Assembly (NCBI GenBank): GCA_944384125.1
Contig: CALWSF010000008.1
Span: forward strand, 13,803-77,802
From: an uncultured Lachnospiraceae bacterium
Lineage (GTDB): Bacteria; Bacillota; Clostridia; Lachnospirales; Lachnospiraceae
DNA length: 64,000 nucleotides
Direction: 5' to 3'
A program made the translations under genes and the position numbers. Under the pieces are notes generated by a model. It was not told the origin of the DNA, did no database searches, and saw only the letters and a program-made list of their open reading frames with translations. Shown piece after piece: positions 8,844 to 14,124 of this stretch. Each line of letters begins with the position of its first letter. Position 1 is the first letter of the stretch.

Positions 8844-9258
8844 ACTGCTCAGAGAAGGATATGCTGTATGGAATTGCGGCGGATTTTGTCCGGATAAGAA
8901 TAAGGGAAGTGCGCTCATGGCAGCAGGGTATGACGGAAGTCTGTTGAAAGTAGTGCGGACAAATAAAGAAAAAAATGGAAAGCATGTGCTCTGCCTGGTT
9001 TATCAGGGATGTTTTCTGGCAGAGGCGAAATCTTATCGGGATGGCAGTGTTTTTGTTGACTTGTATCAGATAGTGGGATTCTCGTCAAAAGCCGGAGGAA
9101 CATTCGAGGCAAAGTGTAAATGCTTATACAATTCCGGACCCAAATTTGTGACAACAAAAATGGCAAATGAATGGGTTCAGAGACTGTCCGGCTTAATAGA
9201 ATCTGTGAGCTATATGTCATTGAAAGAGGATAATGTATCAACGGAGTACAGGTGGTAG
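8668..9258 (+). CDS. Hypothetical phage protein
   Basis: AAGGAG RBS before MNQEEKI. Confidence 0.65.
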   Translation: MNQEEKIEILLSSIQASIVIPDGQEQAIRTALVDGLLKLAQLDAGLKKAVSPYRYYPVELLREGYAVWNCGGFCPDKNKGSALMAAGYDGSLLKVVRTNKEKNGKHVLCLVYQGCFLAEAKSYRDGSVFVDLYQIVGFSSKAGGTFEAKCKCLYNSGPKFVTTKMANEWVQRLSGLIESVSYMSLKEDNVSTEYRW

Positions 9259-9260
9259 AG

Positions 9261-9935
9261 ATGGAAAATTATACAGCAGAAATAAGCCGGATATCTGCAG
9301 ATTCGGCGGCAGGACGAGACAAGGCTGTTCTGCAGATTGTGATAGACGATCCGGTGGCACGCATCATCCGCCGCCGCGGAGTCCGCCATGTGGCTTTGGG
9401 AATTGAGGATGGCCGCCGGATCACGCCCCTGCAGCAGCGTAAAGCTTATGCCATGCTGCGGGATATCGGAGATTATACCGGATATCCCATTGAGCCGATG
9501 AAGCAGATCATGAAAGTAGAGCATATGATGCGAACGGGCGATTATGATTATTTCTCCCTGTCTGACTGCTCTATTACAAAGGCCAGGGAGTTTATTAATA
9601 CCTTGATGGAATATGCCCTGAAAGAGGGCGTGATTTTAAACGAGTCCGGCCTGATGCGGACGGATGATATCGATACATATTTAATCCAGTGCATCCGGTA
9701 CCGCAGGTGCTGTATTTGTGGACGGTCGGCCGATATCCATCATGTGGATGCCATAGGTATGGGAAATGACCGGCGGCATTACAATGACAGCAACAACCAG
9801 ATTGCGGCTCTGTGCCGGAATCATCATACCATTGCCCATAATATTGGTTGGAGCCGGTTTATGAGCATGTATAAAGTGTACGGCATTGAGAAGTACCGAT
9901 GCCAGGAAGGAGGGGAAGATGGCGATCACATTTGA
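9261..9935 (+). CDS. Putative HNHc nuclease
   Basis: CCICGRSADIHHVDAIGMG...ALCRNHHTIAH. Confidence 0.8.
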   Translation: MENYTAEISRISADSAAGRDKAVLQIVIDDPVARIIRRRGVRHVALGIEDGRRITPLQQRKAYAMLRDIGDYTGYPIEPMKQIMKVEHMMRTGDYDYFSLSDCSITKAREFINTLMEYALKEGVILNESGLMRTDDIDTYLIQCIRYRRCCICGRSADIHHVDAIGMGNDRRHYNDSNNQIAALCRNHHTIAHNIGWSRFMSMYKVYGIEKYRCQEGGEDGDHI

Positions 9936-10350
9936 TTCAATTGGAAATGGCGATTTGGCTGCCAAGTTTCGGAATGCACTGGGGGTAATTGGACGGAATA
10001 TCGTAGATCCAAATATGGAGTTGGATGCAGCGCGTGAAATTACAGTCGGGATCAAATTTAAACCAAACGAATCTGGGGCCATTGAGGTTACATATGGCAT
10101 TAAAACCAAGCTGGCCGGTCCGGCCAAGGCAAAGACTACGTTTTTAATTGGCCAGGATGCCAAGACGGGCCGAATTGAAATGACGGAGCATCGGAACGGA
10201 CGGCCGCAGGTGGCAGCTTATGAGGTTATACCGGCCGCACAGGAGGTTACGGAGCCTGAAAGAGTTGGAGCCGAAGCAGGGTTTGATCCGGAAACCGGAG
10301 AAATATACGAAACAGGGAAACCCATTGATTTGCGAAAGCAAAGAGCATAG
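9919..10350 (+). CDS. Conserved phage early protein
   Basis: RBS GGAGGGG; resembles the phage family usually annotated replication terminator protein. Confidence 0.6.
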   Translation: MAITFDSIGNGDLAAKFRNALGVIGRNIVDPNMELDAAREITVGIKFKPNESGAIEVTYGIKTKLAGPAKAKTTFLIGQDAKTGRIEMTEHRNGRPQVAAYEVIPAAQEVTEPERVGAEAGFDPETGEIYETGKPIDLRKQRA

Positions 10351-10365
10351 AAAAGGAGAGATAAG

Positions 10366-11112
10366 ATGGAAGGTTTAAAAGAGGCATTAAAGTATTTAGC
10401 AGATATGGGGGCAAATTCTGAAAAGACAGAAGTGATTGAAATTTGCGGAAAAACTTATGCGAATCGTAAACTGGAGCGATATGACACTTCTAAAAAAGCA
10501 TGTGCGATGAAGACAAAGACACTTTCTTCATTGGTGGAATACATGGAGCGCTGCAGCAGCGAATTCCCGGAACGGCAGATGATTGTGCATGTAGAAGATC
10601 CTAAAACCGTTGTTTTGAAATCTGGACTGGATGCCGAACGCGAACGGGAATCTCTCATGATTGTATCAGCGGAAACTTCGGAATTCCGATTTGACAGCTG
10701 GTATGATCAGGAGCGGTTTATGATAGAACTGCAGGCCAACTTCCAGAAAACGGATGATCTTGAGTTGATTTTAAAGGCAGCAGGGAATATCGACAAGAAA
10801 AACAGCCAGGCATATTCCGATGATGGAATATCGCAGGTCGCAACCATGACGGTGGGTGTGGCAACCAAGGCTGATGTAATTGTTCCGAATCCCGTCAGGT
10901 TAACGCCATACCGGACATTTCAGGAGATTGAGCAGCCTTCCAGCGACTTTGTGTTCAGAATTGGAAATGAGAACGAGCCCACCTTTAAACTGGTGGAGGC
11001 ACAGAACGGAATATGGAAGAATGAAGCGATTGAACGAATTAAATCATATATCCGGGCTGCACTGGAAAAGTTTCCGGATGACCTGAGGGAACAGATCATT
11101 GTAATTGGATAA
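10366..11112 (+). CDS. Conserved phage early protein
   Basis: AAGGAG RBS; VPNPVRLTPYRTFQEIEQPSSDFVFR motif common in Firmicutes prophages. Confidence 0.7.
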   Translation: MEGLKEALKYLADMGANSEKTEVIEICGKTYANRKLERYDTSKKACAMKTKTLSSLVEYMERCSSEFPERQMIVHVEDPKTVVLKSGLDAERERESLMIVSAETSEFRFDSWYDQERFMIELQANFQKTDDLELILKAAGNIDKKNSQAYSDDGISQVATMTVGVATKADVIVPNPVRLTPYRTFQEIEQPSSDFVFRIGNENEPTFKLVEAQNGIWKNEAIERIKSYIRAALEKFPDDLREQIIVIG

Positions 11113-11205
11113 CGTGTAACCGCTCTTTGTGGTTGAATAAAAAATATATTACCGAAAATTTGCCATTGACGTTCCCGGGGGAAGACCGAGCTCCCGGGAA
11201 ATTAA
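11113..11205 (+). ncRNA. Two-hairpin structured element (possibly skipping-rope-like motif)
   Basis: Hairpins 11118-11134 and 11172-11200 joined by an A-rich linker containing ATATAT and TGCCATT; family assignment is from memory only. Confidence 0.35.
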
Positions 11206-11210
11206 ATCGT

Positions 11211-11484
11211 ATTTCCTTGGGCGGGCATGCCTTCCCCTGGCGATACATTGACAGTCTTCCTCTTCCGCCGGTACTGCTGGTTGATTTGGCGGACTGAGAA
11301 AAGGTTTCCCATGGCGGATGCGTCTTCTTTGGGCGATCTTATTTAAAGAGTTTCCCCTGGCGGGTACGCCTTCCTTGGGCGATTCTGTGATAAGCGGCCT
11401 TCCTCTTCCGCCGGCACGGCTCCGGTTGATTTGGCGGGTTTAAAAGTGTACTTCCTTTGGCGGGGCAGCCTTCCTCTGGCGGTA
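11211..11484. repeat. Non-coding array of paired YTTCC-NNN-GGCG motifs arranged as [D-L-D]x2
   Basis: Motif pairs 19 nt apart at 11213/11232, 11306/11325, 11352/11371, 11452/11471; long units CTTCCTCTTCCGCCGG..GGTTGATTTGGCGG at 11256-11292 and 11399-11437. Confidence 0.85.
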
Positions 11485-11510
11485 CAGCTGCGATAACGGG
11501 AGAGAACGAT

Positions 11511-12518
11511 ATGGGAAAAGAAGGAATCGAGTTCTTCCCCTTGCAGTGCCAGCTTGACGAAAAATTTGAATTAATAGAGGCGGAATTTGGTCTGAAGGGC
11601 TTCGCGATTATTATAAAGCTCCTGCAGCGTATATACCGGGAGCATGGGTATTACTGCGAATGGAACAGTGACATTGCCCTTTTGTTTGCCTGGCAAAATG
11701 GGGTTTCCCGGAAGCAGGGAATGCCCTGTGCTGAGGATCGGAACCATATGGTATCCGGAGTTGTAAATTCCGCAGTCAGACGGGGTATCTTTAACCGCGA
11801 ACTTTACGAAAAATTTGGGATTCTGACATCCCGCGGCATCCAGAAACGGTATCTGGATATTGTGTATAAACGTAAAGTTGTAAAAATGGAAAAAGCATAC
11901 CTTTTATTAAGTGCACGCGAAATCAAGGGGAATGTTGTCATTTTGGATGATTCTGACGACAGAAACGGCAAAAATGACGACAGAAACGGACAAAGTAAAG
12001 GAAAGGAAAGTAATAATAAGATCTCTAAAGAGATCTTCGTTGCGAACGATGAAACGTCCGCAACCATGCCAGAAGCATCGCGGTATGTAGACGGATGCTT
12101 TGAGATACGCTGTGTAGATATGCTTATAAAATCTGTGCTGCAGCAGATGCCTGGAGCCAGAGTCCCAAAGTCATTAAAAGACAGGGAGAAATGGGCAGAT
12201 GAGATCGAGAAAATGAAGCGGTTGGATAAAAGAACAGAATCCGATATCTGGGAGGCACTTACATATGCGCTTACAGATGACTTCTGGAGGGCAAATATCC
12301 GCAGTACGAAAAAATTCCGGGAAAAATTTGAAACTCTGTTCCTGCAGAGCCGGAGGAAGGGAAAACAGAAGCAGAGTACGAATCGGTTCCATAATCTGGA
12401 AGAGCATGGATACGATTATGACAAGATAGTCTGGAGCATGATGGGAAGGGATGGTGGAGAAAATGAGCGAAGTCGGACAGGAGATAATGTTGGGGGAGCA
12501 GGCACTGACGGACGCTGA
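11511..12518 (+). CDS. DUF4373 (Lin1244/Lin1753-like) replication initiator
   Basis: GIEFFPL...IEAEFGLKGFAIIIKLLQRIYREHGYY...ILTSRGIQKRY; C-terminal FWRANIRSTKKFREKF. Confidence 0.85.
   Translation: MGKEGIEFFPLQCQLDEKFELIEAEFGLKGFAIIIKLLQRIYREHGYYCEWNSDIALLFAWQNGVSRKQGMPCAEDRNHMVSGVVNSAVRRGIFNRELYEKFGILTSRGIQKRYLDIVYKRKVVKMEKAYLLLSAREIKGNVVILDDSDDRNGKNDDRNGQSKGKESNNKISKEIFVANDETSATMPEASRYVDGCFEIRCVDMLIKSVLQQMPGARVPKSLKDREKWADEIEKMKRLDKRTESDIWEALTYALTDDFWRANIRSTKKFREKFETLFLQSRRKGKQKQSTNRFHNLEEHGYDYDKIVWSMMGRDGGENERSRTGDNVGGAGTDGR
11954..12020 (+). repeat. Intragenic direct repeats and A-rich tract; candidate phage origin
   Basis: TGACGACAGAAACGG at 11954 and 11975 (21-nt period), then AAAGTAAAGGAAAGGAAAGTAA. 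Confidence 0.5.
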
Positions 12519-14124
12519 GAAAAATATTAGAGATGGACTGGGAAAAGCGGTTAAAAGTGTTATTGTGGTCGGATATTACTTGAAGAAAATACGGGACAAC
12601 CATCTGTACGAATCAGCAGGTTATGAATCTATCTGGGAATATGCCTCTGACCGTTTTGGTTTCAGCATGTCTACGGCATCCCGGTATATGGCCAGAAATG
12701 ACAGATTTTCCCGCGATGGGAATAGCCCGGAGCTGGATGAGCGATATGAGGGATTCAGTAAATCCCAGCTGCAGGAAATGTTATCGCTGGATGATGAGCA
12801 GATGGAGCAGGTCACTCCGGATATGACAGTAAAAGAGATTCGGCAGATTCGCAAGCCTGATATACCCTATTATCCGATTCCAGGGCAGATGGAAATAAAT
12901 GATTTCCTGGAAACGACGGATGAGGAAAAAACGGAAGCGCAAGAGCCAGCGGAACAGCCTGAAAAGGTTACCATGCAGATATCAGATTTTATTGAGCGCC
13001 CGGACGAGCCAATTGTTCCGGAGCTGGAAGAGATGGATACTGTAGTTCGAGATTGTTATTGCAAAGCGGCTGCAAGAACATTGATTGAGTCATATCATGA
13101 CTGGATGCTTGAGGATTTTCCAAACCGTGTAACAGATGTCTGCGCATCGGAAATGGAATTTAAAGCAAAATTTAGAGAGGCGAGTACATCCTGGCATTTT
13201 ATGGCACCAGATGATGACGGAGTAGCACACGTAAATCTATTTGATGATTATATCCAGTTTTGGGACGGGGGAGGTAAATTCTTAGGGAATTGCGAGTGGT
13301 TTTATTTATGCGCTGCTATTCAGAGTATGTGGAATGTTATAGCGATGGAAAAAGCGCAGGAAACGGTAAAATCTATTGCGACGTCGCAACAGGATGATTG
13401 TCCTCCGGGGATATCTTATTGTATTCGCCAGGAATGGGGGACCGAACCGGAGCAGCAGGAAGCTGGGAGAAAAGAGTGCGGTAAGTGCTGGGAGCAGTGG
13501 GAAAAAAGCCATAAAAATTTAGTGGTACAGCAGGAAGAACGCGAAGAGCTGGAGCAGCAGGAGATAGAAGAGGCTTCGGAAGCCATCCAGATGGAAGAAT
13601 GTAATGATCTGGATCTGCTGAAGGAAATGCTGCGGAAAGAACAAAATGATCTGGAAGAGATTTTAAAAGTGAATAAGGTAGAACCATTGCCTCCCAAAAT
13701 GGTTAAAAAGAAAAAATTACTGGTAGGTGCTCTCGCCGGAATGATATGCGATTTGGAAAATGCAGAGGAGAGCGCGGAGGGGGAGCGGGAGCTTCCAGAG
13801 ATGCCACAATTGAGAAATAACGAAGAAAGAAGAGCCTGGCTGGAGAATTACCCATCATGGGGACTTTGGTATGAAGATACCCATATCGGTGTGAAGTATT
13901 ATAAATATGATTTTGACAATGGGGCAAAGCTGATTGTGGAGGAATATATCAGCCAGTACGGGTTTGATAAGAAAACGGAAATTACCTGCCCTTATTATCA
14001 CTTGATAGGAGGGGTTAAAGGGGAAAAGTGGTCCTATCATGAACGGTATAATAAATACCCCAATAGTAAGACAGAATTAATTGAGTTTTTGAAGGAGTTG
14101 CAGAAAAATGGATCGAATGCGTGA
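12451..14124 (+). CDS. Multi-domain acidic phage protein, function unknown
   Basis: N-terminal VGYYLKKIRD..STASRYM..FSKSQLQEML domain typical of Lachnospiraceae prophages. Confidence 0.7.
   Translation: MVEKMSEVGQEIMLGEQALTDAEKNIRDGLGKAVKSVIVVGYYLKKIRDNHLYESAGYESIWEYASDRFGFSMSTASRYMARNDRFSRDGNSPELDERYEGFSKSQLQEMLSLDDEQMEQVTPDMTVKEIRQIRKPDIPYYPIPGQMEINDFLETTDEEKTEAQEPAEQPEKVTMQISDFIERPDEPIVPELEEMDTVVRDCYCKAAARTLIESYHDWMLEDFPNRVTDVCASEMEFKAKFREASTSWHFMAPDDDGVAHVNLFDDYIQFWDGGGKFLGNCEWFYLCAAIQSMWNVIAMEKAQETVKSIATSQQDDCPPGISYCIRQEWGTEPEQQEAGRKECGKCWEQWEKSHKNLVVQQEEREELEQQEIEEASEAIQMEECNDLDLLKEMLRKEQNDLEEILKVNKVEPLPPKMVKKKKLLVGALAGMICDLENAEESAEGERELPEMPQLRNNEERRAWLENYPSWGLWYEDTHIGVKYYKYDFDNGAKLIVEEYISQYGFDKKTEITCPYYHLIGGVKGEKWSYHERYNKYPNSKTELIEFLKELQKNGSNA

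What the first reader, a model, noticed from the sequence alone, without database searches (positions are those of the whole stretch)
11211..11484. Ordered non-coding array of self-pairing TTCC-NNN-GGCG dyads ([D-L-D]x2) before the replication initiator
Seen: four dyads (D), each two TTC(C/T)-N3-GGCG motifs exactly 19 nt apart, plus two long units (L) CTTCCTCTTCCGCCGG-loop-CYGGTTGATTTGGCGG. The order D-L-D-D-L-D forms a diverged tandem of about 140 nt. Spacers vary while motifs and spacing are held, and 19 is not a multiple of 3, so a protein repeat is unlikely. In each dyad CUUCC can pair with GGCGG (one C-U mismatch) twice around a pyrimidine-rich internal loop, giving a repeated helix. I recognise no named family. 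Hypotheses: a multivalent protein-binding or antitermination RNA; a C-rich anti-Shine-Dalgarno sRNA; on the minus strand, GGA-loop hairpins like a CsrA sponge; or DNA iterons about two helical turns apart.
Basis: partly seen in the sequence, partly recalled or inferred. Interest (0 to 1): 0.8.

Follow-up and report, generated by a model that had tools for sequence, protein, structure and literature searches.

The report
Tandem hairpin array before phage initiator
The 280-base non-coding stretch in front of a prophage's replication-initiator gene is a row of six related hairpins that form only on the gene's sense strand, most likely a structured mRNA leader of a type not yet catalogued, and not the double-stranded "iteron" origin it looks like at first sight.

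Summary
Eight TTCYNNNGGCG motifs, all on the + strand, lie at 11213-11481 (14 in 64 kb, 3.5 expected). They form four dyads spaced 19 nt plus two long units, ordered [D-L-D]x2.

Each of the six units folds into the same two-tier hairpin:
- a covarying outer stem;
- CUUCC/GGCGG;
- a 3x3 internal loop;
- GGCGGG/CCUUCC;
- a tetraloop.

Compensatory changes in orthologous units from relatives support this fold (97% and 96.5% paired, against 30-66% when partners are slid).

G.U pairs outnumber A.C by 52:1 and 40:1. The structure therefore exists only on the sense strand: RNA, or + strand ssDNA. It is neither a cruciform nor a dsDNA palindrome.

The same motif arrays sit 30-230 nt upstream of Lin1244_N (DUF4373) initiator genes in three clades. 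The upstream neighbours differ, and the initiator is the only shared gene.

All family members examined carry a lambda-like candidate origin inside the initiator gene: 21-bp repeats, an A-rich tract and, in the window's own clade, a palindrome. This makes "upstream iterons = origin" unlikely.

Nothing matches in Rfam, and no usable RNA-seq was found.

Best reading: a multivalent, protein-binding mRNA leader that controls initiator expression. The binding partner is unknown.

The parts
11145..11168 (+). Conserved box TATATTACCGAA...TGCCATTG at the 5' edge of the intergenic leader (function unknown; not a clear sigma-70 promoter in the window)
   Evidence: Conserved in window, L468, L469, L680/L683/L694 although the downstream array differs. 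The promoter scan found nothing on the + strand.
11172..11200 (+). Hairpin H0: 10-bp GC-rich stem UUCCCGGGGG / CUCCCGGGAA with a 9-nt loop
   Evidence: Fold (-18.5 kcal/mol, z -1.8). Relatives keep a hairpin here with a different sequence (L469/L680: CCCCGGAG-9 nt-CUCCGGGG).
11209..11246 (+). Hairpin D1 (motifs at 11213 and 11232)
   Evidence: Covariance model R1 scores it 34 bits, E 8e-7.
11252..11296 (+). Hairpin L1 (long unit CUUCCUCUUCCGCCGG-loop-CUGGUUGAUUUGGCGG)
   Evidence: -19.7 kcal/mol, z -3.8. Covariation of L-type units. The strain variant 11278 T>C turns a G.U into G-C.
11301..11340 (+). Hairpin D2 (motifs at 11306 and 11325; closing pair A-U instead of G-C, loop UGCG)
   Evidence: Strain variants: 11328 T>C strengthens a pair; 11320 and 11322 fall in the loop.
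11347..11386 (+). Hairpin D3 (motifs at 11352 and 11371; loop UACG)
   Evidence: R1 scores it 23 bits.
11396..11440 (+). Hairpin L2 (second long unit)
   Evidence: L468 carries the compensatory change CCGG..CCGG -> CUGGC..GCCAG. The strain variant 11421 T>G extends the stem.
11445..11489 (+). Hairpin D4 (motifs at 11452 and 11471), ending about 9 nt before the ribosome-binding site
   Evidence: Six orthologues give 13 consensus pairs, 5 of them with compensatory changes.
11498..11504 (+). Ribosome-binding site GGGAGAG of the initiator gene
   Evidence: Read from the sequence. It lies 6 nt before the ATG at 11511.
11511..12518 (+). Replication initiator / replisome organiser: Lin1244_N (DUF4373) N-terminal domain plus DnaD-like C-terminal domain
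   Evidence: Pfam PF14297, E 3e-23. PHROG replication-initiation and DnaD-like families. It is the only gene shared by all array-bearing loci.
11931..12037 (.). Candidate origin of replication inside the initiator gene. Not part of the array, but it bears on what the array is. It consists of 21-bp-spaced repeats (11931-11946, 11954-11968, 11975-11989), an A-rich tract (11990-12018) and a palindrome (12018-12037).
   Evidence: The repeat and A-rich arrangement is kept at the DNA level in all family members examined, down to about 40% protein identity.

Best explanation
The array is a tandem series of six homologous imperfect hairpins (seven with H0). They form on the sense strand, most likely in the mRNA leader that runs from the upstream early gene into the replication-initiator gene.

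Each hairpin presents the same short helix twice, in opposite orientation, around a 3x3 internal loop. The helix is GGCGG paired with CUUCC and contains a fixed G.U wobble and a fixed C/U mismatch. That pseudo-twofold layout looks like a binding site for a dimeric protein.

I propose a multivalent, cis-acting RNA operator that sets how much initiator is made, by controlling translation and/or stability of the initiator cistron. The last hairpin ends about 9 nt before the ribosome-binding site. The most economical partner is the initiator itself or a host factor.

Shown: the repeats; the hairpin fold with covariation; sense-strand specificity; linkage to initiator genes in three clades; absence from Rfam.

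Inferred: that the folded molecule is RNA rather than single-stranded DNA; that a protein binds it; that the output is control of initiator expression.
For: - Repeats are real and non-random.
- All six units give the same two-tier hairpin on the + strand, at -13.5 to -19.7 kcal/mol. The minus strand gives -5 to -13.6 kcal/mol.
- Six orthologous D4 units (MAFFT + RNAalifold): 13 pairs, 5 with compensatory changes, 97% of cells paired against 50-66% when partners are slid.
- Eleven L-type units: 13 pairs, 96.5% paired against 30-47% when slid, 19 double changes against 5.9 in shuffles.
- G.U cells against A.C cells: 52:1 and 40:1.
- In the other clades the intra-dyad spacers give 5-9 nested pairs on the + strand and 0 on the minus strand. 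They show compensatory variants and GNRA loops, e.g. AUGAUCC-GAAA-GGAUUGU / GCAGUUC-GAAA-GGACUGU / AUAGUCC-GAGA-GGAUUAU.
- None of the 11 strain variants inside the array breaks a conserved pair. Three strengthen or extend stems; the rest lie in loops or linkers.
- The array lies on the coding strand between co-oriented genes. No terminator-like hairpin with a U-tract separates it from the upstream gene.
- The same motif arrays lie 30-230 nt upstream of Lin1244_N initiator genes in three clades. The upstream neighbours differ: phrog_1029, RusA, an unknown small protein. The initiator is the only shared gene.
- Array, N-terminal domain and intragenic repeats are inherited as one conserved block: 80-90% identity through the array (11200-11499) and mostly 85-90% on to 12000 (65% at 11700-11799), against about 60-77% in the flanks.
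- L690 has a different tandem hairpin array in the same position.
Against: - No transcript evidence. The only RNA run that holds the phage covers coding parts at trivial depth, and other runs were uninformative.
- The whole 300-nt region is no more stable than dinucleotide shuffles (z = 0.27). Single-hairpin z-scores are modest (-3.8 to +0.3).
- RNA and + strand ssDNA cannot be told apart from sequence alone.
- The sequences are few and related. Paralogous units within one array share ancestry, so shuffle statistics overstate significance.
- The CM-fitted alignment is biased. Scores of 15-33 bits also occur in unrelated loci that carry two motifs.
- No binding partner is identified. The N-terminal domain model has no significant structural match.
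- Most Lin1244_N initiators have no such leader, so it is accessory.
Confidence: 0.45

Rival explanations
1. The hairpins act as single-stranded DNA. The + strand of this region folds when it is unwound or displaced, for example in an R-loop made by sense transcription or by a helicase leaving the nearby origin. It then serves as a strand-specific replication signal: a primosome or primase assembly site like ssiA of pAMbeta1 or G4-type ssi signals, or a loading platform for the DnaD-like initiator.
For: Strand-specific, covarying hairpins fit ssDNA as well as RNA. The array lies 450-800 bp from the candidate intragenic origin. It is inherited in one block with the origin-binding domain and that origin. 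DnaD-type C-terminal domains are known ssDNA binders (established knowledge; PHROG hit).
Against: Type A and L473 initiators lack the DnaD-like C-terminus of the window protein but keep the array. UNCG- and GNRA-type tetraloops (UACG, UGCG, GAAA, GAGA, GCAA) and the heavy use of G.U pairs are more typical of RNA. The constant position just 5' of the ribosome-binding site is not required of an ssi signal. Most family members replicate without it.
Confidence: 0.2
2. Classical double-stranded iterons or operators. The TTCCNNNGGCG direct repeats are dsDNA binding sites for the initiator, acting as an origin or as autoregulatory operators, as in iteron plasmids and lambda ori.
For: Eight same-orientation repeats lie immediately upstream of an initiator gene. 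A modestly AT-rich segment sits at 11133-11160. The motif core is conserved in three initiator clades. The array is co-inherited with the DNA-binding domain.
Against: Pairing partners covary in flanks and spacers, which a dsDNA site does not require. The 52:1 and 40:1 excess of G.U over A.C shows selection on one strand only. Motif spacing is 19 nt here but 24-29 nt in the other clades, so helical phasing is not kept. Closer relatives of the initiator (72% identical N-terminal domain, L001 group) lack the motif while distant ones (42-52%) have it, the opposite of iteron-initiator co-evolution. All family members carry a better origin candidate inside the gene.
Confidence: 0.07
3. The hairpins are RNA processing or stability signals. 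Host RNase III, or another structure-specific nuclease, cuts them to uncouple the initiator cistron from the upstream genes. Alternatively they act as 5'/3' stabilisers. This would resemble the intercistronic RNase III sites of T7 and SP82 early mRNAs.
For: They are irregular hairpins about 20 bp long with a central internal loop, lying in an intercistronic gap of a phage early operon. The pseudo-twofold symmetry suits a dimeric enzyme. A host factor would explain why the same core motif recurs in divergent phages of related hosts.
Against: B. subtilis RNase III sites are consistently base-paired around the cut, >90% at -2/+2 (PMC11780869). Here the helices are interrupted every 5-6 bp by fixed mismatches and a 3x3 loop. 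Six sites in tandem would be redundant. The strict linkage to initiator genes is not explained.
Confidence: 0.12
4. A trans-acting RNA: a decoy or sponge made of tandem repeats (for example a mimic of a type III antitoxin such as ToxI/CptI, or a CsrB-like sponge), or a precursor of small RNAs, only incidentally placed next to the initiator gene.
For: Units of about 43-49 nt in tandem resemble the repeat length of type III antitoxin RNAs, which occur in Lachnospiraceae (my own knowledge, not tested). Copy number varies between relatives from 1 to about 9.
Against: The position upstream of initiator genes is constant in three different genomic contexts. The units are diverged and keep structure rather than sequence, unlike processed near-identical antitoxin repeats. 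No toxin gene is adjacent. No GGA sits in loops on the folding strand. No Rfam match.
Confidence: 0.06

Closest known systems
Iteron arrays of plasmid and lambdoid origins (e.g. lambda ori, P1, pPS10)
   Same: Several same-orientation short repeats lie next to the initiator gene. Copy number varies between relatives. They are inherited together with the initiator's N-terminal domain.
   Different: Here selection acts on intramolecular pairing of one strand (covariation, G.U excess). Spacing is not phased. The motif does not track initiator phylogeny. A separate lambda-like iteron/A-rich element, followed in the window's clade by a palindrome, sits inside the gene.
Multivalent protein-binding RNAs with tandem hairpins (CsrB/RsmZ sponges, TRAP- or coat-protein-type translational operators, T4 gp43/RegA operators)
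   Same: Repeated structured units present the same short sequence many times. They lie in a 5' leader next to a ribosome-binding site. Autogenous control of replication proteins by RNA operators has precedent.
   Different: The conserved element is a helix with a fixed mismatch and wobble, not a loop motif such as GGA. No partner protein is known. It is not a member of any Rfam family.
Intercistronic RNase III hairpins of phage early mRNAs (T7 R1.1-type, SP82)
   Same: Irregular hairpins of about 40-50 nt with an internal loop between early cistrons, repeated within one phage with conserved sequence.
   Different: They occur in tandem, six in a row, rather than one per junction. The helices are too interrupted for the B. 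subtilis RNase III motif (PMC11780869). Cleavage is untested.
Single-strand initiation signals (ssiA of pAMbeta1, G4-type and phiX-type ssi)
   Same: Strand-specific hairpin clusters a few hundred bp from a theta-type origin in Firmicutes replicons.
   Different: No sequence similarity was tested or is known. The position is fixed relative to the ribosome-binding site. RNA-type tetraloops are present.
Type III antitoxin RNAs (ToxI, CptI) and phage pseudo-ToxI
   Same: Tandem RNA units of about 36-45 nt; expansion and contraction of copy number in phages.
   Different: The units here are diverged. No ToxN/CptN gene is adjacent. The array is tied to initiator genes.

Membership tests
Any Rfam 15 family | Covariance-model match at or near the gathering score | tested here: not met
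   No hit with E <= 10 in window 10000-13000. No relevant hit with E <= 1 in five related loci.
dsDNA iteron origin / operator array | Direct repeats in one orientation adjacent to the initiator gene | tested here: met
   Eight + strand motifs at 11213-11481, 30 nt upstream of the initiator ATG.
dsDNA iteron origin / operator array | Regular, helically phased spacing kept among relatives | tested here: not met
   19 nt within dyads but 27-74 nt between them in the window. 24-26/55 nt in L037, 27-29 nt in type A, irregular in L473.
dsDNA iteron origin / operator array | Constraint on duplex sequence only, with no strand-specific pairing | tested here: not met
   Compensatory changes in flanks and spacers. 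G.U:A.C = 52:1 and 40:1.
dsDNA iteron origin / operator array | Repeat sequence co-varies with the initiator DNA-binding domain | tested here: not met
   The same core occurs with N-terminal domains only 42-52% identical. It is absent from relatives 72% identical.
dsDNA iteron origin / operator array | Specific binding by the initiator and origin activity | not testable with these tools
   Needs EMSA or footprinting and origin-cloning assays.
CsrA/RsmE sponge RNA | GGA motifs exposed in hairpin loops of the transcribed strand | tested here: not met
   Loops on the + strand are GCAU, ACU, UGCG, UACG, a 7-nt loop and GCAG. The minus strand carries GGAA, but in weak stems (minus-strand energies; z +1.65).
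Intrinsic terminator / attenuator series | GC-rich stem directly followed by a U-tract | tested here: not met
   The scan flags only part of D2 (11321-11335), and the total is within the shuffle expectation. The other units lack U-tracts.
RNase III processing hairpin | About two turns of near-continuous duplex around the cut; paired cuts with a 2-nt overhang | tested here: inconclusive
   The overall length of about 20 bp fits, but a mismatch occurs every 5-6 bp plus a 3x3 loop. This contrasts with the B. subtilis motif (PMC11780869). Cleavage is not testable here.
REP/BIME-type dispersed palindromes | Many copies dispersed over the genome | tested here: not met
   Model R1 finds only the array in the 64-kb window. 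The other motif matches in the window are six isolated singletons.
Type III antitoxin RNA (ToxI/CptI) | Near-identical tandem repeats followed by a ToxN/CptN-type endoribonuclease gene | tested here: not met
   Units are 64-91% identical. The downstream gene is a Lin1244_N initiator.
Structured cis-regulatory RNA leader (generic) | Conserved secondary structure with covariation on the sense strand of a 5' leader | tested here: met
   Position relative to the RBS.
Structured cis-regulatory RNA leader (generic) | Transcribed in the sense direction and affecting expression of the downstream gene | not testable with these tools
   The RNA runs found were uninformative.

The most novel reading that the evidence does not exclude
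An RNA counterpart of iteron control. The phage initiator, or its oligomer, binds a variable number of pseudo-symmetric hairpins in its own mRNA leader. The hairpin count sets the initiator dose and therefore the firing of the origin that lies inside the same gene. Alternatively, the structured leader transcript helps to activate or prime that origin in cis. Either way this would be a previously undescribed class of structured RNA tied to Lin1244_N (DUF4373) replication initiators of Clostridia phages.
Probability: 0.2. Interest if true: 0.8.

Novelty: new variant of a known kind. Interest (0 to 1): 0.62.

Why it matters
Replication control in the abundant temperate phages of gut Clostridia (Lachnospiraceae and relatives) is almost unstudied, and DUF4373/Lin1244_N initiators have no experimental literature.

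If the reading holds, the finding adds three things:
- A candidate new structured-RNA family with good covariation, recognisable by a simple signature: UUCC-N3-GGCG pairs enclosing a hairpin.
- A warning for annotation. Direct repeats next to an initiator gene are not automatically the origin. In this family the likely origin is inside the gene.
- A tractable system for asking how a phage doses its initiator, because hairpin copy number varies naturally from one to about nine.

If the hairpins instead act as ssDNA, they would be a new kind of strand-specific origin accessory in Firmicutes phages.

Tried and rejected
1. Collection scans with two- and three-motif DNA patterns returned mostly collagen-like coding repeats and simple tandem repeats. 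Only the tighter pattern TTCCTYTGGCG-N6-18-TTCCTYTGGCG, combined with tblastn, recovered real relatives.

2. Whole-region folding energy is not better than shuffles. Thermodynamics alone does not support a structure.

3. Covariance model R1 as a detector. Weak hits (15-33 bits) also arise in unrelated loci that carry two motifs. I therefore do not count the weak hits, or the statistics of the fitted alignment A3, as independent evidence.

4. RNA-seq. One bird-metagenome RNA run holds the phage but covers only small coding pieces.

5. Structure of the initiator. The full-length and N-terminal AlphaFold models gave no significant PDB fold match. The PDB sequence search was empty. Nothing was learned about whether it binds RNA or DNA.

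6. The idea that the leader carries an inverted copy of the intragenic repeats. A 9-mer is shared in L001 only, and there is no general signal. Rejected.

7. Resemblance of GGCGGUAC to the RfaH ops element, to rrn boxA, to sigma-54 promoters, to tRNA T-arms and to CRISPR repeats (Racr idea prompted). Each was considered by eye and dropped, because only GGCG/UUCC is conserved across clades.

8. Sigma-70 promoter in the leader: none found on the + strand.

9. Exact 8-mer repeat search around all homologues missed the array. It did lead to the intragenic 21-bp repeats.

Full report
**Context.** The window carries a temperate phage region. It has a lambda-type terminase, portal and capsid at 16.5-23.4 kb and an early gene block on the + strand from about 7.8 kb. 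The sequence occurs in chicken-gut metagenomes.

The finding lies in the 398-nt gap between two genes:
- an upstream gene of unknown function (10366-11112, phrog_1029);
- a 335-aa replication initiator (11511-12518). Its N-terminus is Lin1244_N/DUF4373 (PF14297, E 3e-23). Its C-terminus matches DnaD-like and lambda-O-like replisome organisers.

**Observation.** TTCYNNNGGCG occurs 14 times in 64 kb against 3.5 expected. Eight copies, all on the + strand, lie at 11213-11481 as four pairs exactly 19 nt apart. The two long units and the ~140-nt higher-order repeat D-L-D / D-L-D are also real. The stretch is non-coding: only short unconserved ORFs cross it, and the closest relative differs by single-base indels.

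**Relatives.** Protein-guided and pattern-guided searches recovered the same kind of array in front of Lin1244_N initiator genes in three separate clades of the family:
- *The window's own clade.* L468 (initiator 75% identical) has the same six units with substitutions. L597 (60%) has one D unit plus four L-like units. L469/L680/L683/L694 (about 60%) have one L-like and one D-like unit.
- *L037 = L525*, a Blautia MAG. Its N-terminal domain is 52% identical. It has four dyads of GGTTCCTYTGGCGTT.
- *'Type A'* human-gut contigs (48%) and L473 (42%), with 6-9 motif copies.

The gene upstream of the array differs: phrog_1029 in the window's clade, RusA in L037, an unrelated small protein in type A and L473. 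The initiator is the only window protein with a homologue in the other array-bearing loci.

Most other family members have no such array within 3 kb, and often have no intergenic gap at all. L690 carries five ~60-nt tandem hairpins of different sequence at the same place.

**Structure.** Folded one at a time, all six window units, L as well as D, adopt one architecture on the + strand:
- a 4-6-bp outer stem made of the flanks;
- CUUCC/GGCGG (C-G, U.G, U/C mismatch, C-G, C-G);
- a 3x3 internal loop;
- GGCGGG/CCUUCC (or the L-unit equivalent);
- a short apical loop.

Energies are -13.5 to -19.7 kcal/mol on the + strand and -5 to -13.6 on the minus strand.

Comparative support does not rest on energy:
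- Six orthologous D4 units, aligned by MAFFT, give 13 consensus pairs. Five show compensatory changes, including the three flanking pairs outside the motif (GUAC/GUAC, GUGC/GCAC, GCGC/GCGC, AUGC/GCAU). 97% of cells are paired, against 50-66% when partners are slid.
- Eleven L-type units give 13 pairs, 96.5% paired against 30-47% slid, with 19 double changes against 5.9 in shuffles.
- In the other clades the spacers between the two motifs of a dyad are self-complementary, differ in sequence and carry stable loops. Examples are AUGAUCC-GAAA-GGAUUGU, GCAGUUC-GAAA-GGACUGU and AUAGUCC-GAGA-GGAUUAU in L473, GCGC-UUAU-GCGU and GCAC-UUAU-GUGU in type A, and CAC-AGA-GUG and CGC-ACG-GCG in L037.
- Strain variants agree with the fold. 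Of 11 polymorphisms inside the array, none breaks a conserved pair and three strengthen or extend stems.

Caveats apply. The sequences are few and related. Units within one array are paralogues. The model-fitted alignment is biased, and weak model hits are not specific.

**Which strand, and DNA or RNA.** G.U pairs make up about a quarter of all stem cells, while A.C is almost absent: 52:1 in D-type and 40:1 in L-type units. The ratio is about 14:1 even at the variable positions. On the complementary strand each of these pairs would be a mismatch. Consistent with this, intra-dyad spacers give 5-9 nested pairs on the + strand and none on the minus strand.

The selected structure therefore exists on the sense strand only. 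That excludes a cruciform or a symmetric duplex binding site, and it excludes the minus-strand CsrA-sponge idea.

Sequence alone cannot separate RNA from + strand ssDNA. I favour RNA for four reasons:
- The folding strand is the coding strand of a co-directional operon.
- The last hairpin ends about 9 nt before the ribosome-binding site in the window's own clade, and within about 50 nt of the start codon in the other clades.
- UNCG- and GNRA-type tetraloops are frequent.
- The helices rely heavily on G.U.

No transcript data could be obtained.

**Why it is probably not the origin.** All family members examined share an element in the linker of the initiator gene, between the N-terminal domain and the rest of the protein. 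It consists of 2-4 direct repeats spaced 21 bp apart and an almost invariant A-rich tract, ACAAAGTAAAGTAAAGGAAAGTAA. In the window the repeats are AATGTTGTCATTTTGG at 11931 and TGACGACAGAAACGG at 11954 and 11975. In the window's clade a palindrome follows, and its arms covary: AGATCTCT/AGAGATCT, GACTAC/GTAGTC, GAATAC/GTATTC.

This is the iteron / AT-rich / palindrome layout of lambda ori, which also lies inside its initiator gene (established knowledge). It is kept at the DNA level down to about 40% protein identity.

The upstream array behaves differently. It is present in only some lineages. Its motif does not track initiator phylogeny. Its spacing is not helically phased.

The array, the N-terminal domain and the intragenic element are nevertheless inherited as one block. 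Window and L468 are 80-90% identical through the array and mostly 85-90% on to 12000, against about 60-77% in the flanks. So the array is functionally tied to this replication module.

**Mechanism.** Each hairpin shows the helix GGCGG/CUUCC twice in opposite orientation around the internal loop, with its fixed wobble and mismatch. This pseudo-twofold site would suit a dimer.

Six or seven such sites in a row, next to the ribosome-binding site, with copy number varying between relatives, fit a multivalent RNA operator that doses initiator synthesis. The partner is either the initiator itself or a host factor. The initiator is the only linked gene common to all arrays. A host factor would explain why the motif is conserved across phage clades.

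I put about 0.45 on 'sense-RNA leader that controls initiator expression'. The identity of the partner stays open. The rivals are:
- a + strand ssDNA replication signal (0.2);
- RNase III-type processing (0.12), weakened by the interrupted helices compared with the B. subtilis motif in PMC11780869;
- dsDNA iterons or operators (0.07);
- a trans-acting decoy or sRNA precursor (0.06).

**Comparison and novelty.** Nothing in Rfam 15 matches, and DUF4373 has essentially no literature. The element works like known multivalent protein-binding RNA leaders and superficially resembles iteron arrays. It fails the defining tests of iterons, CsrB-type sponges, terminators, REP elements and type III antitoxins.

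I rate it a new variant of a known kind: a structured, repeated cis-regulatory RNA. It is a credible candidate for a new RNA family linked to phage replication initiators.

Noticed in passing
window 11931-12037 (inside the initiator gene): Candidate origin of replication in the linker of the initiator gene. It has 21-bp-spaced repeats (11931-11946, 11954-11968, 11975-11989), a nearly invariant A-rich tract ACAAAGTAAAGGAAAGGAAAGTAATAATA (11990-12018) and a palindrome (12018-12037). The palindrome arms covary in relatives. The repeat and A-rich layout is kept at the DNA level in all Lin1244_N family members examined.
   Followed up: partly
window 11145-11200: Conserved box TATATTACCGAA..TGCCATTG followed by a GC-rich hairpin (H0). 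Both are kept in relatives whose downstream array differs. The box is not a clear sigma-70 promoter in the window, though L468/L680 read TGtTATATA there. Function unknown.
   Followed up: partly
L690:1195-1495 (IMGVR_UViG_2517572005_000006): Five tandem ~60-nt units of unrelated sequence, each a long hairpin with compensatory differences between copies. They sit directly upstream of a Lin1244_N initiator that is followed by a DnaB-like helicase gene. Same architecture, different sequence.
   Followed up: partly
L290:11111-11441 and L339:4-300 (IMGVR_UViG_3300045988_165406): About 30 head-to-tail copies of an 18-bp unit (AATTCCWAMGGCGTG) beginning about 1.1 kb downstream of the end of the match to a distant Lin1244_N homologue (9666-10037). 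It was not determined whether this stretch is coding or non-coding.
   Followed up: no
L001/L020/L472:3163-3210 and L681:1431-1477, L682:1364-1410: Weak covariance-model hits inside the coding region of related initiator genes: the hairpin CGCCCUUCUGUUUGCGAGACAGGUUCUUUCCUGCAGCGGGGCG, in the variable insert of the N-terminal domain. This may be chance.
   Followed up: no
window 11328, 11278, 11421 and others: The window's strain carries weakened versions of several hairpins compared with other chicken-gut strains: TTCT instead of TTCC in motif 4, G.U instead of G-C in L1, and a shorter stem in L2.
   Followed up: yes
window 9886-10350 and 9252-9935: Upstream early genes: an HNHc_6 nuclease, and a protein matching PHROG 997 (annotated 'replication terminator'; its L469 homologue hits Pfam YfdP). 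The 557-aa gene downstream of the initiator (12451-14124) is of unknown function (phrog_15077) and overlaps the initiator's 3' end by 68 nt.
   Followed up: no
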